Shown one piece after another: positions 55,281 to 63,527 of a stretch of DNA of 64,000 bases; the first letter of the stretch is position 1, and each line of letters opens with the position of its first letter. The notes under the pieces were generated by a model. The model was not told the origin of the DNA, searched no databases, and saw only the letters and a program-made list of their open reading frames with translations. The stretch comes from Escherichia phage vB_EcoS_Uz-1. The stretch lies in sequence record OP312987.1. One strand, 5' to 3'. A program made the position numbers and the translations under genes.

Positions 55281-56099
55281 CTACAGCTTCTTCACTAGCT
55301 GGGCTGGATACAATTGGTACATTACATTACCGTAGCGAACGTATATGTTACTGCTACCCATATAGCCTTGATACCATCTATCAGACATATCATATGAACC
55401 AGGTTCAAATGGCATGCCTAGTGTATCCAGTAGAGTGTAGTCGCCTTGTTGAATACTATTACTCTCGTCTGTTCTAATGAGTTTGGGAGTACTTAGCTCA
55501 GCTTTAATTTCACCGTTAAACACAATTGATTTGATGTAATGAATAAAGGTATTTAAATCATGTTTGCCTAACTGGAATTTAACTTCCAGACCAGATTCCT
55601 CAGTAGGAATACCAGTAATAATAGGAACAATACCAGGCTTACCATCATTCTCAATTGCAGCCTTAGCTACGTTATATACAGACATCTTCCCTTGGTTCCA
55701 TGATGTAACCTGGAAGCTATCTGTATAAGCGAATGGGGATTTACATCCCAGACCAAAGCCACCAGTAACACTACTGTTGGACTTCTTGGTAGATGCACCA
55801 TAGACACCATAAATGGAGCCAATGAGTTCATCTTGGATACCGTTACCGAAGTCACGGAAGGTAATAAAGTTGTCAGTATCAATGGTAATACGGATAGGAG
55901 TATCAGTCTTACCTGCTTCAATATGGGCATCCCAACTGTTACAGATAGTTTCACGGACTACTGCCAGAGTAGGGTTGTTATACAAGGAAGTACTTAATAC
56001 ATGAAAGAATGCCGGGTCATCAGAGATGCCAAAGGCGATTGCTTCTTTGCCACCCAGTGTCGCTGAAGTGGCTGATTGATTGGTATCTGCAACTAACAT
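55281..56099 (-). CDS. rIIA: rIIA-like protein, N-terminal GHKL (Bergerat-fold) ATPase fragment
   Basis: ExxxNxxDA-type VRETICNSWDAH, DxGxG-type FRDFGNGI and Gly-rich VTGGFGLGCKSPF motifs, as in GyrB/Hsp90/MutL-type ATPase domains found at rIIA N-termini. Confidence 0.65.
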   Translation of the reverse strand: MLVADTNQSATSATLGGKEAIAFGISDDPAFFHVLSTSLYNNPTLAVVRETICNSWDAHIEAGKTDTPIRITIDTDNFITFRDFGNGIQDELIGSIYGVYGASTKKSNSSVTGGFGLGCKSPFAYTDSFQVTSWNQGKMSVYNVAKAAIENDGKPGIVPIITGIPTEESGLEVKFQLGKHDLNTFIHYIKSIVFNGEIKAELSTPKLIRTDESNSIQQGDYTLLDTLGMPFEPGSYDMSDRWYQGYMGSSNIYVRYGNVMYQLYPAQLVKKL

Positions 56100-56126
56100 T
56101 TATTTACTCTCCAGTTTAAATGTTGC

Positions 56127-56375
56127 TTACATTAGAACTTGTTTACACTTATCAAAAATAGCTTTACGAAGTTCAGCTTCTTCCCGTGGTTCATCATTAG
56201 GATGGTGACCTACAGGACTATTTTGAAAAGCATTCATTAGGAATAAGACCTGATACTCGGTTAAACCATTAATCTGAATGCTATACGTTTTCTCTGAGGC
56301 GATATTTACATTAGCCATTGCGTTTACCTGCCATTGCTTGTAATACAAACACAGCCATATCTGATGCCATGTCAT
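56127..56375 (-). CDS. small hypothetical protein
   Basis: ORF track 82 aa; probable start at internal Met (MANVNIAS...) near 56318 because of overlap with the upstream ORF. Confidence 0.4.
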   Translation of the reverse strand: MTWHQIWLCLYYKQWQVNAMANVNIASEKTYSIQINGLTEYQVLFLMNAFQNSPVGHHPNDEPREEAELRKAIFDKCKQVLM

Positions 56376-56685
56376 CTGTTATATCGTTGACCGTTCCATA
56401 TGGTAGTGGGCCGTTCTCTTCCCAGTTATCTAACGTGTTTTGTACTTCAGCTAAACCAGCCTGAATCATTTCCTTGCTTGGTTCCAGCCATAACTTACGT
56501 TCCTCTGCTAGTGCAGCGATGCATATGCATAGAGAGGCAATGTTAGCTGGACAAGCAGCAATATCACCAGTTACTGCAATCTCACTGAGTGGGACAGCCT
56601 TACCGGTTTTACTATGAATTACTTCAGGGTTAATCATGAATTTGCTCCAGGTTATGGGCAGGAATAGGGAAGCATGGATAGTCAC
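56311..56685 (-). CDS. hypothetical protein
   Basis: 124-aa ORF. Confidence 0.45.
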   Translation of the reverse strand: MTIHASLFLPITWSKFMINPEVIHSKTGKAVPLSEIAVTGDIAACPANIASLCICIAALAEERKLWLEPSKEMIQAGLAEVQNTLDNWEENGPLPYGTVNDITDDMASDMAVFVLQAMAGKRNG

Positions 56686-56842
56686 CGGTAGGGTCCAGTG
56701 TTACTGACACATGCAGTGTATTTGTCATTTGGGTTAGCATCTGAGCAGCATTGAAATCATCCTGGATACAGGCATATACAATGTCGCCCTTCTCACCCTC
56801 ACACATTACGGGTGTGTCTTTGATACGGTATTTAGCAGGCAT
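56630..56842 (-). CDS. small hypothetical protein
   Basis: 70-aa ORF immediately downstream of a minus-strand terminator. Confidence 0.4.
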   Translation of the reverse strand: MPAKYRIKDTPVMCEGEKGDIVYACIQDDFNAAQMLTQMTNTLHVSVTLDPTGDYPCFPIPAHNLEQIHD

Positions 56843-56867
56843 ATGCCCTCCTGAAAGAGTTAATTGA

Positions 56868-56897
56868 AACCAAAAAAGACCTCCCGGAGGAGGTCTT
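56868..56897 (-). terminator. intrinsic terminator
   Basis: AGACCTCC-CGGA-GGAGGTCT hairpin followed on the minus strand by TTTTTTGG. Confidence 0.7.
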
Positions 56898-56901
56898 AGG
56901 T

Positions 56902-57117
56902 TTACTTACGATTTTGTTCTACAAATCGTATCATTTGTTTTTTCACTTCTTCTTGCTCACGAATTGCTTCGTAGTCACGAGCAAAGTAGTAAACACACCA
57001 TAAACCAATCTCGCTTACAAAGAACAGAATACTAGCTCGAATGAACTGCATATCTGTTTCTACGACAAAGGCAACTTTGTATGCGTAGGTCAGTGTTAGT
57101 AGGGTACTAATTAGCAT
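56902..57117 (-). CDS. small membrane protein
   Basis: 71 aa with two hydrophobic segments. Confidence 0.5.
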   Translation of the reverse strand: MLISTLLTLTYAYKVAFVVETDMQFIRASILFFVSEIGLWCVYYFARDYEAIREQEEVKKQMIRFVEQNRK

Positions 57118-57136
57118 TGCGTATAGAGCTAGTTTT

Positions 57137-58081
57137 TCATTCTGTAATTGTTTCTCCGGGGATTAGTTTACGGAATTGGATGAAATCCAGTAAGTTGCCA
57201 GAATACAGCTTACCTTCACGGTCCATAGATGTAACACCCTGTTCCCATGTTAATGGGTTCTGGTTGTTCACATACTTATCACCAACAGTCATAGGAGTTG
57301 CCTGGTGTTCGGTAGGGGATGCATGAATAGGTTGGTTTTCAACTAACTTAGCAAACAATCCTAAGTCCTCTTCAATAGTAGATGGACGGCCTTCGAAATT
57401 GTTGTAAGAAGCACGAGCACAACGAGCAGCACTTACTTTAAGAAGTAAGCCATACACTTCTTCACGACTTGGCTCATCACGAGTAATTCGCTGATGTTTG
57501 CAGTAATTATAAGCCCCGACACGATCAATATGAGCAATATACGGTAAATGCCATTCCCCTTGTGGGAGTGCTCTCGTAGTGCTTTCATTGTGTGCCTTAC
57601 GCATTGCTTGAGCCAGTTCACGAATCTCTGGTTGAGCGTCCTCATGGTCACGCAATCCATAGAAGTTAGTCCAGCTAGTTGAAGTTACCACTACACGGAT
57701 ATGTGTGAATGGTTCCAGAATACGGTTAACAATCTGCTTATGTACTTGACCACGACGAAGCATTTCTGCATAGGTAGCAGCACTGGACGCAGCCTGATTC
57801 CAGATAAAGATTGCATCTACGTTGGTCTTCGGACTGAGTTCCTCAAATGCCTGCATACCCTTCTGGTTCTTACCCCAGTGACTTGGCATCACTGGTTCAT
57901 TACGAACCTGTTCGATGAACTTAGAAGTAGGGATAGCACGACTACTTGAAGCATTTCGGTTGAATACACGGTGAGTCATAAACTCACTGTGGATGAATCG
58001 GGGGTAAACCAATTCAAAGGTAGTAATACGAGTTCCTGTTTCTGGGTGAACGGAATCTGCAATGACAGTTGCCTTAATCAT
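57137..58081 (-). CDS. thyX: ThyX-like (flavin-dependent thymidylate synthase family) protein, tentative
   Basis: Segment TTFELVYPRFIHSEFMTHRVFNRNASSSR resembles the ThyX core around the RHR...S.R signature as recalled, with T in place of the first R; 314 aa. ThyA motifs absent. Confidence 0.45.
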   Translation of the reverse strand: MIKATVIADSVHPETGTRITTFELVYPRFIHSEFMTHRVFNRNASSSRAIPTSKFIEQVRNEPVMPSHWGKNQKGMQAFEELSPKTNVDAIFIWNQAASSAATYAEMLRRGQVHKQIVNRILEPFTHIRVVVTSTSWTNFYGLRDHEDAQPEIRELAQAMRKAHNESTTRALPQGEWHLPYIAHIDRVGAYNYCKHQRITRDEPSREEVYGLLLKVSAARCARASYNNFEGRPSTIEEDLGLFAKLVENQPIHASPTEHQATPMTVGDKYVNNQNPLTWEQGVTSMDREGKLYSGNLLDFIQFRKLIPGETITE

Positions 58082-58524
58082 TAGAATGACCTTAGATAGT
58101 TGGTGATACCACTTCTCGTCTCTGTAATCCTCTTAACCTGAACATATACCAGCTTAAACTCACTACGAGGTAGTTCTTGTAATACTGCTATACCTTCGGT
58201 AAGGGCCACAGAACACGCTACAGCGGTTTCTTTTTTAAAGGAGTACAAGTCTTCATACATGAGGGCTTCATACTCCCTACGGAGCATACAGAGAGCATCT
58301 CTTGCTTTATCACTTACTTCTTGTGAACCAGCAGACATAGCTAAGCTGTATATGATAAAGACTTGTTCAAAAACAAAGTCCAGTAATCTATCAGGATTGT
58401 TAGTCCCCATAAATAATTTTGTTGTGTAGGAACGAGCTTTACGGTTGAGTTCATACTCATCCTCTATGCCTTTATTGTAAAGAACAGGATTTCGTTCCCT
58501 TTTCCGTAGGAATGGGATACGCAT
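58081..58524 (-). CDS. hypothetical protein
   Basis: 147-aa ORF. Confidence 0.5.
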   Translation of the reverse strand: MRIPFLRKRERNPVLYNKGIEDEYELNRKARSYTTKLFMGTNNPDRLLDFVFEQVFIIYSLAMSAGSQEVSDKARDALCMLRREYEALMYEDLYSFKKETAVACSVALTEGIAVLQELPRSEFKLVYVQVKRITETRSGITNYLRSF

Positions 58525-58904
58525 TAGTATTTACTGCCTCTTCTATACCAAGGATAGTGATGGGTAGTACTTTTACCTTTGAACACATCCTTAGTACGCG
58601 GATTCTTTTGTATTTGAGCCAGGTAAAGAGGTATTTCGTCATAACACGGGTTAAGCCAAAACAAATCTATGATTCGGTCTACCTTAGTTTTCAGATTAGG
58701 TTCTAGGGGAATGTATGAATTAAAAGGTCTGCTAGTAGTCCATCCTCTCTGAACAAGAACCTGCATTGTTGTATAAAGATCTAATTCATTTCCATTCTCT
58801 ACTTGATCATGAATAGTTTTACCTAAAGTAAGCATTGCAGTTTGTTCCAGCTTACTTAAGTCCAATCCTTGCAGGATAGACTTACCATTTTGTCTACTTG
58901 ACAT
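58524..58904 (-). CDS. hypothetical protein
   Basis: 126-aa ORF. Confidence 0.5.
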   Translation of the reverse strand: MSSRQNGKSILQGLDLSKLEQTAMLTLGKTIHDQVENGNELDLYTTMQVLVQRGWTTSRPFNSYIPLEPNLKTKVDRIIDLFWLNPCYDEIPLYLAQIQKNPRTKDVFKGKSTTHHYPWYRRGSKY

Positions 58905-58912
58905 AAGAGTAC

Positions 58913-58945
58913 CTGTAAATAAAAAAGCCCACTGGTTAGGTGGGC
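58913..58945 (-). terminator. intrinsic terminator
   Basis: AGCCCAC...GTGGGCT hairpin followed on the minus strand by TTTTTTATTTAC. Confidence 0.7.
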
Positions 58946-59059
58946 TTGGGTTAGGAGATGGATAAGCAATGAGCTGGAAGTAACTTCCGCAAGCACCACT
59001 ATGTAATGATGCTTAGATTAGTTACTCTGCTTTGCTACTACCGTTTGAGACTACAACAG

Positions 59060-59299
59060 TTACGATTGTAGTCTGAGACTGCCTTTATTAGACAGTGCCC
59101 AAATTAGTGCTACTACCCAGAAGACTAAAGACCAGCCTAATACGATATTGAGCACACCAATGCCCCACTTGGAGGCATGGCCTCGTGCAAAAGCAATGAT
59201 AGTAGGGATGAGGTATACAGCTATTATGAATAAGAAAACAAGGATTGCTGCTAAAGATTCCATGATGGTTCCTATGTGGGGTTGAGTTAGTTTCTTCAC
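59060..59299 (-). CDS. superinfection immunity (Imm-like) membrane protein
   Basis: 79-aa two-TM protein with YLIPTIIAFARGHASKWGIGVLNIVLGWSLVFWVVALIWAL, matching the recalled signature of the T4 Imm-like family. Confidence 0.65.
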   Translation of the reverse strand: MKKLTQPHIGTIMESLAAILVFLFIIAVYLIPTIIAFARGHASKWGIGVLNIVLGWSLVFWVVALIWALSNKGSLRLQS

Positions 59300-59336
59300 A
59301 AATAGCCCAACTATGCTGGGCTATTTAGGCAGCTAC

Positions 59337-59546
59337 TTACTCAGCATCTTTGCTTGCAGAAGCAAGAGCTTTCTTCAGGTAATTACGTACTGAACGATAG
59401 GTTTCTTTAGTATCCATAGCATTATCATTTACGAAAGTGATACGTGCACAATCAGACAGCGGAATCTGCTCCACTGCAATTACATTTGCAGCATTAATGG
59501 TTACACGTACATCTGAGGTTGCATGAGTTACTTGAAATACTGACAT
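59337..59546 (-). CDS. small hypothetical protein
   Basis: 69-aa ORF. Confidence 0.45.
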   Translation of the reverse strand: MSVFQVTHATSDVRVTINAANVIAVEQIPLSDCARITFVNDNAMDTKETYRSVRNYLKKALASASKDAE

Positions 59547-59555
59547 GTTGTTTCC

Positions 59556-60062
59556 TTAATTAAGCCGTCTAGCAGCTACTGGTTTATCTTCCTGGTTCTG
59601 ATACTTGCCATTGTAATTAGCAGGTTCTTGAACCAGATGAAATAATACTTGAGCTATCCCAGCACCAGCCGGGATATGCAATTTCTTACGACCATGATAG
59701 ACCAGTTCGAGGGTAAGATACCCTTTCCATCCTGGTTCTATTACGGTATTGAACACTGATAATGCACGTCTTGCCCACGTAGACTTATCGTGAACGATGG
59801 CTACACAGGACGGGGACATATTAAACTTCTCAATTGCTGAGGCCAAGGCGAACTTACCGAGATGGCGTGATACTTGATTTCCATCAACGACTTTCACCAT
59901 TGGAATCAACCCAAATAAGCGATAGAAGGTAATATCCTGTTTGATACGAATATCATAACCAGCTTCACCTAATCCGTAGCTTACACCATGCTTAGATACC
60001 TTACGGTCTGGGACATCCAGCAGCTGAGATGAACGGTATAGAGAATTACCATTAACAACCAT
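59556..60062 (-). CDS. dCTP deaminase-like protein (dUTPase superfamily)
   Basis: AGYDIRI and VIEPGWKGYLTLELVYHG resemble dCTP deaminase/dUTPase motifs; 168 aa. Confidence 0.55.
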   Translation of the reverse strand: MVVNGNSLYRSSQLLDVPDRKVSKHGVSYGLGEAGYDIRIKQDITFYRLFGLIPMVKVVDGNQVSRHLGKFALASAIEKFNMSPSCVAIVHDKSTWARRALSVFNTVIEPGWKGYLTLELVYHGRKKLHIPAGAGIAQVLFHLVQEPANYNGKYQNQEDKPVAARRLN

Positions 60063-60580
60063 TATTTCATTCCTTTAGGGATATGAACTACCTCCCCAAA
60101 AGGTACGGTAGCATTGGGATTATTCAGAACACACCAGATGATAGGAATATCAAATGGCAATTCTTCCATTGGACGAACATACATATCGGAGAATATGATT
60201 GCAGCGGTTGGCTTATTCTTAATAATCCAATCACGTACTGGTTCCAGGTTTGTACCACCACGACCTGTAATCTTAATCTCTTCAAATGTATCTTCTTCAG
60301 TGATGTCTATCTCTTCTTGGATAATATCGTCGAAGGTAATTAGGGACATCTTCTTAGGATTGAACTGGCTTTTAACGTAGGCAACCTCTGAGTTAAATCG
60401 CAGAGAGTCTGCACTACTAATAGAACCAGATACATCTTCAAAGTAGGCCAGGTGTCGTAAACGTCCTTCATCATCTTCCATAGAAGGTAGATAGATATCA
60501 GTAAAACGACGGTTAGGTCTGGCCCATGTATAACGTGATTCATCAATGTCGGTAAAAAGTTCATCAGAACTTCTTGCCAT
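60062..60580 (-). CDS. VWA-like domain fragment (C-terminal part of a metallopeptidase-VWA protein)
   Basis: MIDAS-like EDVSGSIS and ITGRGGT motifs; upstream region continues in other frames toward the metallopeptidase ORF. Confidence 0.55.
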   Translation of the reverse strand: MARSSDELFTDIDESRYTWARPNRRFTDIYLPSMEDDEGRLRHLAYFEDVSGSISSADSLRFNSEVAYVKSQFNPKKMSLITFDDIIQEEIDITEEDTFEEIKITGRGGTNLEPVRDWIIKNKPTAAIIFSDMYVRPMEELPFDIPIIWCVLNNPNATVPFGEVVHIPKGMK

Positions 60581-60634
60581 GGAACCACTGGTTTAAGAAA
60601 TTGGGTAATAACCTCTTCCATACGACCAGCACCC

Positions 60635-61234
60635 TTACCTGGCATCTGTCCACCAGCCATTTTCTGGCTTTGCATTGCACGTACTACGTTGTTGACAACA
60701 GCACCCTGGGACTGCCCGGAGTGGGGATTTCATGTCGCCAGCAAGACCTGCTCCAGCACCCCCTGACGGCTTCTGCCTTTTCTGAGGGTTCTTCATCAAG
60801 TCATCGTAGATATCTTCTTCGACCCATCCTTTATATTGAGGGTCTTTGCAAATACCTTTGTCGATACCAGTGAATTTGTAACCATCTTCTTCTAACTGAA
60901 GGTTAATGAAGTGGTCACATGCCTGGTTCCAGACTTCTGGGTCACGGCTTCCACGACGGATGTCATGTAGATATGCCACATGCCAGAGTTCGTGCATTAA
61001 CACTGTTTCTCTTGCGTCTGGACACATCCAGATAAAGAAATCTGGATTGAAATGGAGTTCTATCCCATCGGTACATGCAGTGGGACAATCCTCGCGTTTC
61101 CACGAGAACTTAAGACTACATAGTAATGAACCAAAGAACGCAGCGCTTCGACCTAGGAAAGCCTGAGCTTGAATACGATCATATTCACGCATGAGTTGTT
61201 CATCTGTGAGACTATGCGTAGGTATACTGTTCAT
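60635..61234 (-). CDS. zinc metallopeptidase-like fragment (HExxH), N-terminal part of metallopeptidase-VWA protein
   Basis: HELWHVAYLH motif; C-terminal ~40 aa of the ORF look out of frame (Cys/Gln-rich). Confidence 0.55.
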   Translation of the reverse strand: MNSIPTHSLTDEQLMREYDRIQAQAFLGRSAAFFGSLLCSLKFSWKREDCPTACTDGIELHFNPDFFIWMCPDARETVLMHELWHVAYLHDIRRGSRDPEVWNQACDHFINLQLEEDGYKFTGIDKGICKDPQYKGWVEEDIYDDLMKNPQKRQKPSGGAGAGLAGDMKSPLRAVPGCCCQQRSTCNAKPENGWWTDAR

Positions 61235-61712
61235 TAGGGTGCTCCATGATTGGGGTGATAGCCATACAGTTTTTCAGCCGCTTTTCTGGCGTCTATGGCA
61301 TCTTGCTTGTCTGCAAAAGTGCCCAAACTTACCAGACGTGTTCCATCAGATATAGCTGCATACCAGATGGAATCACGCTTGTGCCAGTACACACCAGTAA
61401 CACCACTGGAATTAGTTACCCGTTTCTTTTGGTTTCTGGTGTTAGTTCTGCTGTCTACTAATCTAAAGTTACTTAGAAGGTTATTAACCCTATTGTGGTC
61501 TAGGTGATCAATCTGCATACCTTTCGGGATAGGTCCATTGTGCATTTCCCATATGACACGGTGCACTTTGTAACTTTTGCCCTTATAGTTGAAGCATAAA
61601 TAACCATCGCTATTTAGATTACCTACCTTTTTCCAGCAATGCCTCTGGAGGCTACTGTAACTTTCCAGAATAGCTCCCCATTTATGTAAACGAGTATGTC
61701 ATTCCAGTTCAT
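61234..61712 (-). CDS. HNH homing endonuclease with AP2-like domain, frame-shifted in this assembly
   Basis: ORF track 61234..61566 has HNH motif IDHLDHNRVNNLLSNFRLVDSRTN and AP2-like tail; the N-terminal ~50 aa (MNWNDILVYINGELFWKV...) lie upstream in another frame from ATG 61712, joined if an A5 run gains one base. Confidence 0.75.
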
Positions 61713-61719
61713 GTTGTGA

Positions 61720-62220
61720 TTATCCGTGAATGTAGCGGGAGATGTTAGCAGCAGCCTTACGCCATTCAGGGGTAGCCTGAAGTTCTGGCAATGCTCTGCC
61801 TACTGTACGAAAGTACAGAATCTTATGAGTGAACGTTTTAAAGCGTTCAATGTACTGAAGAACATCAGCGAAGTTTTCCTCAGTAGTTTTGTTAGCCAGA
61901 TGGTTAACGGTAGCCCAACACAGGTTATTATCTTCCGGTAGTGTACAGCCCATAGGGTCTTTGACTACCTTATCAATCGTAATGATACGATTGTACACCT
62001 GTGTAAATTGAACAAACTCTGTAGCCTTACCAGCAGTAACGTGTCCTGCATAGTAGATAGAATCTTCATCAGGCAGAGCACCTTCAGGACGGTTCTTGAG
62101 GTCTTTGTTAACAAAGTCCCAGGTACGAGGGCAACAGAACGTTTTGTTCTTATGTGCTGGGTCGAAGTCATGCAGATAACCGGGGTTAGCATGTAAGAAT
62201 GCAACCAGACGTTCATCCAT
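61720..62220 (-). CDS. MoxR-like AAA+ ATPase, C-terminal fragment
   Basis: 166-aa ORF overlapping the 3' part of the ATPase ORF in another frame; protein-like sequence. Confidence 0.5.
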   Translation of the reverse strand: MDERLVAFLHANPGYLHDFDPAHKNKTFCCPRTWDFVNKDLKNRPEGALPDEDSIYYAGHVTAGKATEFVQFTQVYNRIITIDKVVKDPMGCTLPEDNNLCWATVNHLANKTTEENFADVLQYIERFKTFTHKILYFRTVGRALPELQATPEWRKAAANISRYIHG

Positions 62221-62771
62221 TGTTGTGGAATCATTACGTCTTCAACAAAGATGTCGAAGTTAAGTTCCATTTCGAAGTGGACAACACGGGACTGCATTGC
62301 AGTACCCAGTGGGTTAACGATGGCACGGTCAGTAGCTTTGTTACCAGCACAGATAATCATCACATTAGGATGAAGTTTTTTCTGACCAGTCATACGGTCT
62401 AGAATCAGTTTATATGCAGCAGCTATTACTTCTTTGCGAGCAGATGGGAACTCATCAAGGAATAAGAGCCAGCCATTATATCCTTCCGGTATTTTATCCC
62501 CTTCAATTGGGAATAAGTCAGCGAATGGAATAAACTCTGCACGGTCACCATTACGGAATGGTAAGCCAGAAAGGTCTTCCGGGGCAGAAGTTGACAGACG
62601 ATGGTCTATCAACTTCATACCAAATTCTTCTGCAATAGAACGAATGATTGCAGATTTACCCATGCCAGGTGATGAAGTCAGGAACGGTACGTTACCTGCT
62701 TTCAAAGCACGGATAATAAAGTTACGAGCTTGACGTGAATTACATACGGTCAAGGAGTCAATGCTTGCCAT
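61965..62771 (-). CDS. MoxR-like AAA+ ATPase, N-terminal part
   Basis: Walker A SSPGMGKSA, Walker B LLFLDEFPSA, ICAGN sensor-like motif; last ~60 aa look out of frame. Confidence 0.7.
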   Translation of the reverse strand: MASIDSLTVCNSRQARNFIIRALKAGNVPFLTSSPGMGKSAIIRSIAEEFGMKLIDHRLSTSAPEDLSGLPFRNGDRAEFIPFADLFPIEGDKIPEGYNGWLLFLDEFPSARKEVIAAAYKLILDRMTGQKKLHPNVMIICAGNKATDRAIVNPLGTAMQSRVVHFEMELNFDIFVEDVMIPQQWMNVWLHSYMLTPVICMTSTQHIRTKRSVALVPGTLLTKTSRTVLKVLCLMKILSTMQDTLLLVRLQSLFNLHRCTIVSLRLIR

Positions 62772-62805
62772 TTACTTACTCTCCTAAAGCTAATGGAATT
62801 ACTGA

Positions 62806-63135
62806 TTAAGATTTAGTGCAGGGATAGGCCTTGTGTACTGAGTACACAACAATTTGAGATGTATTCTTCATCTTGAGGATTGCAGAGTCATAAATAACCA
62901 CTTTGGCAATCTTAGGCAGAATGACCGAATATTTAATACCTTCTGGAACACAGTTATCTGTGCTCTCGATGTAAGAGATCATACTGCCCATGAAGAAACC
63001 TTGTCCGAACGCATCACGAGTGTCATCCAGGTAAGCCTGAGCACCTTCCAGAATTGGTTCTGGTTCAATTGCTTGTGCACTTGGGGCTAAAGCTATCAGT
63101 GCAGCTACTGCAATACCTTTAAGTAAAGTTTTCAT
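62806..63135 (-). CDS. secreted/periplasmic hypothetical protein
   Basis: N-terminal signal-peptide-like MKTLLKGIAVAALIALAPSAQA; 109 aa. Confidence 0.55.
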   Translation of the reverse strand: MKTLLKGIAVAALIALAPSAQAIEPEPILEGAQAYLDDTRDAFGQGFFMGSMISYIESTDNCVPEGIKYSVILPKIAKVVIYDSAILKMKNTSQIVVYSVHKAYPCTKS

Positions 63136-63321
63136 TTAGTTACCTTTCATTTCATTGAGTTTAAGTACACCGATAGGGGTTAATGACCACCCAAGACCAG
63201 CATTGAACTGAACTAAGCCCAGCTTCTTAAGAGACTGTGCGGTTTTGTTATTACGGTTGCTGGTGGCAGAACCACCTTGAACCATACGAAGGAAGATTGC
63301 TTGGGACTGAGTTAATTTCAA
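63136..63321 (-). CDS. small hypothetical protein
   Basis: 61-aa ORF abutting neighbours in a compact operon. Confidence 0.4.
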   Translation of the reverse strand: MKLTQSQAIFLRMVQGGSATSNRNNKTAQSLKKLGLVQFNAGLGWSLTPIGVLKLNEMKGN

Positions 63322-63527
63322 AGGTAATATCCTTCCAGGTTTATTGGTGTTACAAATGTATTTGCTGATAGATAGAATGATTTACCAGTTTCTACAGCAA
63401 CAGCAGCAGGTTTGCCTTCAGGTAGGTGAATCTTTAAACACACTGTCTGGTTATAAATAAAACCATTAGCAGGCTCTACATCACCGAAAGTTACTTCATT
63501 GTTCTCAGAACGATTTGTTACTTTCAC
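63318..63527 (-). CDS. small hypothetical protein
   Basis: 69-aa ORF, 4-nt overlap with neighbours. Confidence 0.45.
   Translation of the reverse strand: MKVTNRSENNEVTFGDVEPANGFIYNQTVCLKIHLPEGKPAAVAVETGKSFYLSANTFVTPINLEGYYL

What the first reader, a model, noticed from the sequence alone, without database searches (positions are those of the whole stretch)
59060..59299. Imm-like superinfection immunity gene in the replication module
The 79-aa two-TM protein has the IIAFARGH ... LGW ... ALIWA pattern I associate with the T4 Imm-like family, which blocks DNA injection by superinfecting phage. It is followed by its own intrinsic terminator.
Basis: partly seen in the sequence, partly recalled or inferred. 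Interest (0 to 1): 0.4.

Follow-up and report, generated by a model that had tools for sequence, protein, structure and literature searches.

The report
Imm-family superinfection immunity gene, already annotated
This is a real small membrane-protein gene of an N4-like E. coli phage that belongs to the same family as phage T4's Imm protein, which stops a second phage from injecting its DNA. It is already annotated as such in this phage and its relatives, so the finding is correct but ordinary.

Summary
The ORF at 59060..59299 (- strand) exists and is a clear member of Pfam PF14373 (Imm_superinfect). It scores 62 bits against a cut-off of 27.9 and covers the whole profile. T4 Imm itself scores 58 bits, and the two proteins align end to end (28% identity, E 3e-10). 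The two residues whose mutation weakens T4 Imm (R33, W50) are conserved here as R27 and W44.

The exact protein is already in GenBank: UWJ04352.1, "putative membrane immunity protein", Escherichia phage vB_EcoS_Uz-1. The homologue has been annotated as Imm-like gp27.1 in phage G7C, Bp4 and about 50 other Gamaleyavirus genomes.

- **Start codon.** The start is ATG 59263 with an AGGAA ribosome-binding site, giving 67 aa, not GTG 59299 giving 79 aa.
- **C-terminus.** A 1-nt deletion shared only with Bp4 cuts off the tail. Relatives are 80 or 86 aa. The genome carries Bp4's indel pattern throughout, so this may be an assembly artefact.
- **Terminator.** The canonical terminator (58947..58925 plus T6) belongs to the N4-like backbone, not to imm. 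The gene's own 3' element is a hairpin without a T-run.

The function, blocking genome entry at the inner membrane, is inferred by homology. T4 Imm works by binding the tape measure protein, which podoviruses lack, so the target here is unknown.

The parts
59060..59263 (-). imm (gp27.1 homologue) coding sequence as encoded in this window: 67 aa from ATG 59263 to TAA 59062..59060. The PF14373 domain covers residues 16-57.
59264..59299 (-). This is most likely 5' untranslated leader and contains the ribosome-binding site AGGAA at 59273..59269.
   Evidence: No homologue carries this extension. The stretch is out of frame and contains TAA in Moo19. Bp4 annotates the ATG as start.
59300..59326 (-). 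Hairpin A (AAATAGCCCAGC-ATA-GTTGGGCTATTT, predicted dG -17.4 kcal/mol). It follows the gp27 homologue and marks the upstream edge of the imm cassette. It has only a weak T-run (TATTTGTG).
   Evidence: Conserved in 9 genomes, with compensatory changes in Moo19. Present in phi G17 and, in diverged form, in N4 without imm. Annotated as stem_loop in G7C.
59022..59081 (-). Vestigial C-terminal tail coding region. After the missing base between 59081 and 59080, the +1 frame still reads QSQTTIVTVVVSNGSSKAE and ends at TAA 59024..59022, matching the 80-aa relatives.
58991..59014 (-). Hairpin B (AAGCATCATTACATAGTGGTGCTT). It is the 3' element of the imm cassette itself and has no T-run.
   Evidence: three pairs are kept through changes on both sides in IME11/PGN829.1. 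Absent from phi G17 and N4.
58919..58947 (-). Canonical intrinsic terminator (AAGCCCAC-CTAACCA-GTGGGCTT, then TTTTTT). It belongs to the N4-like backbone and lies 14 nt upstream of the ATG of the gp28 homologue (58904).
   Evidence: Conserved in N4 and phi G17, which lack imm. Annotated as a terminator in SP5M.

Best explanation
The gene encodes a small inner-membrane protein of the Imm_superinfect family (PF14373), an orthologue of gp27.1 of G7C-like (Gamaleyavirus) N4-related podoviruses.

It is an accessory cassette made of a ribosome-binding site, the ORF and a 3' hairpin. The cassette is inserted between the hairpin that follows gp27 and the conserved terminator that precedes gp28/gp29, inside the block of nucleotide-metabolism and replication genes. 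By analogy with N4, this block is transcribed in the middle phase by phage RNAPII.

Inferred mechanism: soon after infection the protein inserts into the cytoplasmic membrane. There it prevents the inner-membrane channel of a later-arriving phage from forming, so that phage's DNA does not reach the cytoplasm. This is what T4 Imm does by binding the helical-bundle domain of the tape measure protein.

Shown here: family membership, conservation of the two functionally tested T4 residues, purifying selection and the cassette architecture. Inferred: the exclusion activity itself, and which phages are excluded. N4-like phages have no tape measure protein. The target is therefore either the ejection proteins of phages of its own type (the inner-membrane complex attributed in N4 to the gp51 C-terminus and gp50 N-terminal domain) or the tape measure proteins of competing myo- and siphoviruses.
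For: - Profile matches: PF14373 at 62.1 bits, E 4e-17, covering the full profile. T4 Imm scores 58.2 bits on the same model. PHROG 1039 matches at E 9e-28.
- Direct alignment: BLASTP to T4 Imm gives 28% identity over 72 aa from the first residue, E 3e-10. tblastn hits to T-even-type imm genes give 49-54% identity over residues 17-57.
- Conserved residues: R27 is invariant and W44 nearly invariant across Gamaleyavirus, Chaseviridae, Acinetobacter, Jerseyvirus, Bxb1 and T-even members. They correspond to T4 R33 and W50, whose alanine mutants lose exclusion activity (bioRxiv 10.64898/2026.03.06.709160).
- Structure: the AlphaFold2 model has pLDDT 88.6 and four short helices, 2-17, 19-26, 32-42 and 46-57. 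That fits the four-helix description of T4 Imm in the preprint, and the model superposes on other viral Imm models at TM 0.69-0.74.
- Selection: dN/dS is 0.08-0.21.
- Distribution: present in about 54 Gamaleyavirus-type records but absent at this locus from N4 and phi G17.
- Parallel context: T4 imm also lies among replication and nucleotide-metabolism genes, between gene 42 and gene 43.
- Existing annotation: the same call is made in Uz-1, Bp4, G7C and others.
Against: - No member of the family other than T4 Imm was found to have been tested, in the literature searches run here.
- The family is very large: 7,726 clusters at 50% identity. Many members are longer proteins, so one shared function is not guaranteed.
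- Identity to T4 Imm is only about 28-31%.
- T4 Imm's demonstrated partner, the tape measure protein, does not exist in podoviruses. The N4 ejectosome is built from gp50, gp51 and gp52 (PMC13434306).
- As encoded in this window the protein lacks the conserved hydrophilic C-terminal tail.
- There was no hit in PADLOC, although that library does not target phage-encoded exclusion genes.
Confidence: 0.65

Rival explanations
1. It is an Imm-family gene, but in this genome it is a decaying or inactivated copy. The 1-nt deletion removes the conserved C-terminal tail, so the product is non-functional or weakened.
For: All other relatives encode 80- or 86-aa proteins with a conserved Q-x-Q-T-x-[IV]-V-N-V tail, and T4-type proteins have a similar QVIII tail. 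The window and Bp4 alone lack one base at AAAGG[N]CAG. PGN829.1 also carries a disrupted copy, annotated in two pieces, which shows the gene can be lost. N4 and phi G17 do without it.
Against: The whole PF14373 domain, including R27 and W44, is intact. Jerseyvirus and Bxb1 members naturally lack such a tail. The +1 frame downstream is still open and conserved, so the change is very recent or not real. The genome is exactly colinear with Bp4: same length of 72,583 bp, and ungapped over 25 kb and 8 kb at 94% identity. Meanwhile imm differs from Bp4 at 31% of synonymous sites. That pattern points to a reference-guided assembly that inherited Bp4's indels.
Confidence: 0.15
2. It is a PF14373-fold membrane protein whose role is not exclusion of phage DNA. 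It could be, for example, a lysis-timing or holin-like membrane protein, or a modulator of a host membrane process. On this view the 'immunity' label is only an annotation carried over from T4.
For: It is a small, very hydrophobic helical membrane protein, the general class that holins and antiholins also fall into. Only one family member has been tested. The family is huge and mostly unnamed. A superinfection-exclusion system has not been characterised in N4-type phages (PMC12642591).
Against: The gene is far from the lysis cassette and sits among replication and nucleotide-metabolism genes, as imm does in T4. No holin family was hit in Pfam or PHROGs; the only strong hits are Imm. The residues needed for T4 Imm activity are conserved. 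N4's lysis and lysis-inhibition functions map to gp60-63 and do not need this gene.
Confidence: 0.12
3. It is a chance ORF or a non-coding region.
Against: dN/dS is 0.08-0.21. The ribosome-binding site and ATG are conserved. Profile hits are very strong. There are about 75 close homologues on ~72-kb phage contigs.
Confidence: 0.01

Closest known systems
Phage T4 Imm (NP_049660, 83 aa), the founding and only tested member of PF14373
   Same: Same Pfam domain with full coverage, and an end-to-end alignment starting ME[ST]L. R33/W50 are conserved as R27/W44. Similar size and a helical membrane fold. Both are encoded by a virulent phage among replication and nucleotide-metabolism genes.
   Different: Identity is only about 28%. 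T4's N-terminal hydrophobic helix is 6 residues longer. In the window the tail is cut off by a frameshift. T4 is a myovirus and its Imm binds the tape measure protein gp29, whereas this phage is a podovirus without a tape measure protein. T4 also has a second exclusion protein, Sp; I did not look for a homologue of it here.
gp27.1 of Gamaleyavirus phages (G7C YP_004782154, Bp4 YP_009113230, Uz-1 UWJ04352.1)
   Same: These are orthologues at the same locus, with 84-97% identity over the domain. The Uz-1 entry is identical to the window protein.
   Different: Most are 80 or 86 aa with an intact tail. Only the window protein (identical to Uz-1's) and Bp4's are 67 aa.
Imm homologue of Chaseviridae myovirus Mangalitsa (YP_009850504), and of Acinetobacter phages
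   Same: These are the closest relatives outside Schitoviridae, at 58% and 52% identity, and have the same QxQ..VVNV tail. This fits horizontal exchange of the cassette among enterobacterial phages.
   Different: Their hosts' phages are different virus families with tape measure proteins. Mangalitsa has LGL instead of LGW at the position of T4 W50.
HK97 gp15 and P22 SieA (inner-membrane proteins that block DNA entry)
   Same: They have the same proposed mode of action: a phage-encoded inner-membrane protein that stops genome translocation. The T4 preprint states that HK97 gp15 also acts through the tape measure protein.
   Different: No sequence relationship was detected here. They are analogues, not family members.

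Membership tests
Pfam PF14373 Imm_superinfect / PHROG 1039 | Profile match above the curated gathering score over the whole 42-position domain | tested here: met
   62.1 bits against a cut-off of 27.9, E 4e-17, profile positions 1-42/42. PHROG 1039 at E 8.6e-28.
Pfam PF14373 Imm_superinfect / PHROG 1039 | Direct sequence similarity to the founding member, T4 Imm | tested here: met
   BLASTP gives 28% identity over 72 aa, E 3e-10. T4 Imm scores 58.2 bits on the same model.
Pfam PF14373 Imm_superinfect / PHROG 1039 | Conserved P..IA..RG...... LGW....W....W signature, including the residues needed for T4 Imm activity (R33, W50) | tested here: met
   P20, R27 and W49 are invariant. Y17, G43, W44 and W55 are nearly invariant. 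The mutant data come from bioRxiv 10.64898/2026.03.06.709160.
Pfam PF14373 Imm_superinfect / PHROG 1039 | Small helical integral membrane protein (two hydrophobic stretches; four short helices in models) | tested here: met
   Hydropathy. AlphaFold2 model with pLDDT 88.6 and helices 2-17, 19-26, 32-42, 46-57. Foldseek matches to viral Imm models at TM 0.69-0.74. Membrane orientation was not determined.
T4-type Imm function (superinfection exclusion at the DNA-entry step) | Expression reduces plating or DNA entry of superinfecting phage | not testable with these tools
   This needs a plasmid-expression and efficiency-of-plating assay. No published test of a Gamaleyavirus Imm was found.
T4-type Imm function (superinfection exclusion at the DNA-entry step) | Binds the tape measure protein of the excluded phage | not testable with these tools
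   The carrier phage is an N4-like podovirus whose ejectosome is made of gp50, gp51 and gp52, with no tape measure protein. A self-directed mechanism through a tape measure protein is therefore not possible. A partner was not searched for.
Holin / lysis regulator (considered) | Profile match to a holin family, or a location in the lysis cassette | tested here: not met
   No holin family appears among the Pfam or PHROG hits. The neighbours are dCTP deaminase, ThyX and small N4 gp27/28/29 homologues.

The most novel reading that the evidence does not exclude
A T4-type Imm protein works in a podovirus that has no tape measure protein. It would block the inner-membrane step of the N4-type ejectosome (gp51 C-terminus and gp50 N-terminal domain) and so provide the superinfection-exclusion system that has not yet been identified for N4-like phages. 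This would show that the PF14373 fold recognises a feature common to unrelated phage inner-membrane channel formers. The alternative within the same reading is that it is kept purely to shut out competing T-even-like, Chaseviridae-like or siphoviral phages, that is, cross-family exclusion by a virulent phage.
Probability: 0.3. Interest if true: 0.5.

Novelty: already known. Interest (0 to 1): 0.2.

Why it matters
As a gene call it adds nothing new. The exact protein is already deposited as a "putative membrane immunity protein", and its orthologues have carried the Imm label since phage G7C was annotated.

The open question it points to is who the target is. T4 Imm is now reported to act on the tape measure protein, yet this homologue is conserved under purifying selection in podoviruses that lack one. 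No exclusion system has been characterised for N4-type phages. A simple plasmid-expression assay would therefore be informative about how general the Imm mechanism is. It would also bear on phage-cocktail design, because Gamaleyaviruses are used against pathogenic E. coli and could exclude other phages in a cocktail.

Tried and rejected
- **Rfam scan of 58500-59700.** The only hit was a sub-threshold Trp_leader match (22.6 bits against 41, E 0.075) over the terminator region. I rejected it as generic resemblance to a terminator or attenuator.
- **Promoter scan.** It found no sigma-70-like promoter on the minus strand near the gene. No promoter for imm was identified, and N4-type middle promoters are not covered by the tool.
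- **PADLOC.** No hit.
- **PDB sequence search with the family profile.** Only spurious hits, to a designed repeat protein and to ABCB4. No solved Imm structure is in that copy.
- **Sub-threshold DUF3302 hit.** It scored 20 bits against a cut-off of 32 and was disregarded.
- **Literature searches.** I looked for tests of Imm homologues outside T4, for PF14373, and for N4 or G7C exclusion, and found no experimental data. The original Lu & Henning papers are not held.
- **Hairpin overlapping the stop codon.** It lies on the plus strand at 59068-59082, with the related inverted repeat AGACTACAA...TTGTAGTCT on the coding strand. It sits inside the vestigial tail-coding sequence, is not conserved in Bp4 and has no T-run. 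I rejected it as a terminator.
- **GTG 59299 as start codon.** Rejected; see the observation check.

Full report
**What is at the coordinates.** The minus strand of 59060..59299 carries an open reading frame of 79 codons counted from a GTG. Hydropathy shows two hydrophobic stretches separated by a short basic loop, ARGHASKW.

**What genome this is.** The window is an N4-related podovirus of the genus Gamaleyavirus (Schitoviridae). It is 92-94% identical to Escherichia phages Bp4 and UE-S5a. The gene lies between dCTP deaminase and a small gp27 homologue on one side. On the other side are gp28 and gp29 homologues and the flavin-dependent thymidylate synthase ThyX. "Replication/nucleotide-metabolism module" is therefore a fair description.

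**Family assignment.**
- Pfam PF14373 (Imm_superinfect) matches at 62 bits against a gathering score of 27.9, E 4e-17, over all 42 profile positions.
- PHROG 1039, "immunity to superinfection", matches at E 9e-28.
- I fetched T4 imm itself and translated it. It scores 58 bits on the same Pfam model.
- T4 Imm aligns with the window protein from the first residue: 28% identity over 72 residues, E 3e-10.
- An AlphaFold2 model built on 32 family members is confident (pLDDT 88.6) and consists of four short helices: 2-17, 19-26, 32-42 and 46-57. Its best structural matches are other viral "superinfection immunity" models.
- The breaks fall at the conserved P20 and at G43-W44. The "two-TM" picture is therefore a hydropathy-level approximation of a more compact helical bundle.
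- This agrees with the four-helix description of T4 Imm in a 2026 preprint (bioRxiv 10.64898/2026.03.06.709160).
- The family is very large: 7,726 clusters at 50% identity reach E <= 0.001. No member has a solved structure in the PDB copy searched.

**Is it a real gene?** Yes. About 75 close homologues were found, most of them on ~72-kb phage contigs. dN/dS against seven relatives is 0.08-0.21.

**Already known.** The exact 67-aa sequence is deposited as UWJ04352.1, "putative membrane immunity protein" of Escherichia phage vB_EcoS_Uz-1. Bp4, G7C, IME11, SP5M, Moo19, Bas96 and others annotate the orthologue (gp27.1) as Imm-like.

**Correction 1, the start codon.** No homologue has the 12-residue N-terminal extension; all begin ME. 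The GTG at 59299 lies directly after a conserved hairpin. In Moo19 the GTG-to-ATG stretch is 4 nt shorter (so the GTG is out of frame with the ATG) and contains TAA triplets. The AGGA-N(5-6)-ATG arrangement is conserved. The start is ATG 59263, and the encoded product is 67 aa.

**Correction 2, the C-terminus.**
- Relatives are 80 or 86 aa and share a hydrophilic tail...SNKGQ(N/S)Q(V/T)T.V.V... T-even proteins have a similar QVIII tail.
- The window and Bp4 alone lack one base at AAAGG[N]CAG, between 59081 and 59080, and so end in SLRLQS or RTRLQM.
- The +1 frame downstream is still open. It reads QSQTTIVTVVVSNGSSKAE and stops at 59022.
- The genome has exactly Bp4's length of 72,583 bp. It aligns to Bp4 without a single net indel over 25 kb and over 8 kb at about 94% identity. 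An equally similar phage, PD38, needs 11 extra bases over the same 25 kb.
- The substitutions are biased to third codon positions, as in natural divergence. Within imm the two genomes differ at 31% of synonymous sites.
- Sharing every indel, including several split genes, at that level of divergence is best explained by a consensus called against Bp4 as a reference.
- The truncation may therefore be an inherited artefact. I cannot prove this without the reads.
- The Pfam domain is complete either way, and some family members (Jerseyvirus, Bxb1) naturally lack the tail.

**Correction 3, the terminator.** Alignment with N4 and phi G17, which lack imm, shows the backbone order. It runs gp27 stop, hairpin A, TTTGTG, GGAAGTTACTTCC, CATTGCTTA, a canonical terminator, then the next gene. 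In genomes with imm, a cassette sits directly after hairpin A. The cassette consists of leader, ribosome-binding site, imm and hairpin B.
- Hairpin B (59014..58991) keeps three pairs through changes on both sides in the IME11/PGN829.1 lineage, but it has no T-run.
- The only canonical terminator (58947..58925 plus T6) is the backbone's and lies 112 nt beyond the present stop codon.
- The gene is therefore a moron-like accessory cassette without a recognisable promoter of its own. It is presumably read through from the neighbouring genes, which in N4 are middle genes transcribed by RNAPII (PMC13434306). That timing is an inference from synteny.

**How it probably works.** The only experimental anchor is T4.
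- According to the 2026 preprint, Imm sits in the inner membrane and binds the helical-bundle domain of the tape measure protein gp29. This blocks formation of the inner-membrane conduit. R33A and W50A weaken exclusion.
- Both residues are conserved here as R27 and W44. R27 is invariant and W44 nearly invariant across myoviral, siphoviral and podoviral members.
- My best explanation is therefore that this protein likewise blocks genome entry at the cytoplasmic membrane.
- The carrier phage has no tape measure protein. N4-type phages build their ejectosome from gp52, gp51 and the virion RNA polymerase gp50, and the inner-membrane part is attributed to the gp51 C-terminus and gp50 N-terminal domain (PMC13434306).
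- A recent N4 lysis study states that no exclusion system has been characterised for N4 (PMC12642591). N4 has no imm at this locus.
- Either the Gamaleyavirus protein recognises those unrelated ejection proteins, or it is kept to exclude competing phages that do have tape measure proteins. Its nearest relatives outside Schitoviridae are in Chaseviridae and Acinetobacter phages, at 58% and 52% identity. I found no experiment that addresses this.

**Rivals.**
- A decayed copy. This is possible but weakened by the artefact argument and the intact domain.
- A different membrane function, such as lysis timing. There is no supporting profile hit, the genomic context is wrong, and the functional residues are conserved.
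- A chance ORF. This is excluded.

**Verdict.** The gene is real, ordinary and already annotated. What remains open is its target in a phage without a tape measure protein.

Noticed in passing
whole window; tested on 30001-55000 and 55500-63500: The window aligns to Escherichia phage Bp4 at identical coordinates with no net indel, at 93.7% identity over 25 kb and 94.3% over 8 kb. The source genome (vB_EcoS_Uz-1) has exactly Bp4's length of 72,583 bp. The substitutions look natural (biased to third codon positions, patchy). This suggests a reference-guided consensus that inherited all of Bp4's indel states.
   Followed up: partly
60062-60580 + 60635-61234; 61720-62220 + 61965-62771; 55281-56099: Several genes that are single ORFs in relatives are split or truncated here, exactly as in Bp4. 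The N4 gp25 homologue is separated into its VWA-like DUF2201 and DUF2201_N metallopeptidase parts. The gp24 AAA ATPase homologue is in two pieces. Only a 272-aa rIIA fragment is present. These are probably the same kind of frameshift as in imm.
   Followed up: partly
58991-59014 (-) and 58976-58988 (-): A conserved hairpin B follows the ancestral imm stop; it keeps three pairs through changes on both sides. Next to it is an invariant 5-bp-stem, 3-nt-loop hairpin GGAAG-TTN-CTTCC, also present in phi G17, with GGAAATTCC in N4. An alternative pairing joins AGUAACU (which includes the ancestral stop) with AGUUACU. Their function (RNA stability, processing or pausing) is unknown.
   Followed up: partly
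58524-59546 compared with L004 (N4), L006 (G7C), L007 (phi G17): The interval between gp27 and gp29 is a small plasticity zone. N4 has gp28 but no imm. G7C has imm but no gp28. phi G17 has neither. The window has both.
   Followed up: partly
61234-61566 (-): An HNH_3 plus AP2-domain homing-endonuclease-like ORF sits between the gp25 and gp24 homologues.
   Followed up: no
L009 (PGN829.1) 420-678: In phage PGN829.1 the imm region is annotated as two short CDSs on opposite strands, and the database holds only a 44-aa C-terminal fragment (P0075). This is a disrupted or mis-called copy.
   Followed up: no
L003 (T4) 2374-2625 and the preprint: The T4 preprint notes an upstream alternative start that would give a 94-residue Imm. 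Some metagenomic T-even-type homologues (P0093, P0099) also carry an N-terminal extension, MI.PSTTDYKLEDIK, before the ME start.
   Followed up: no
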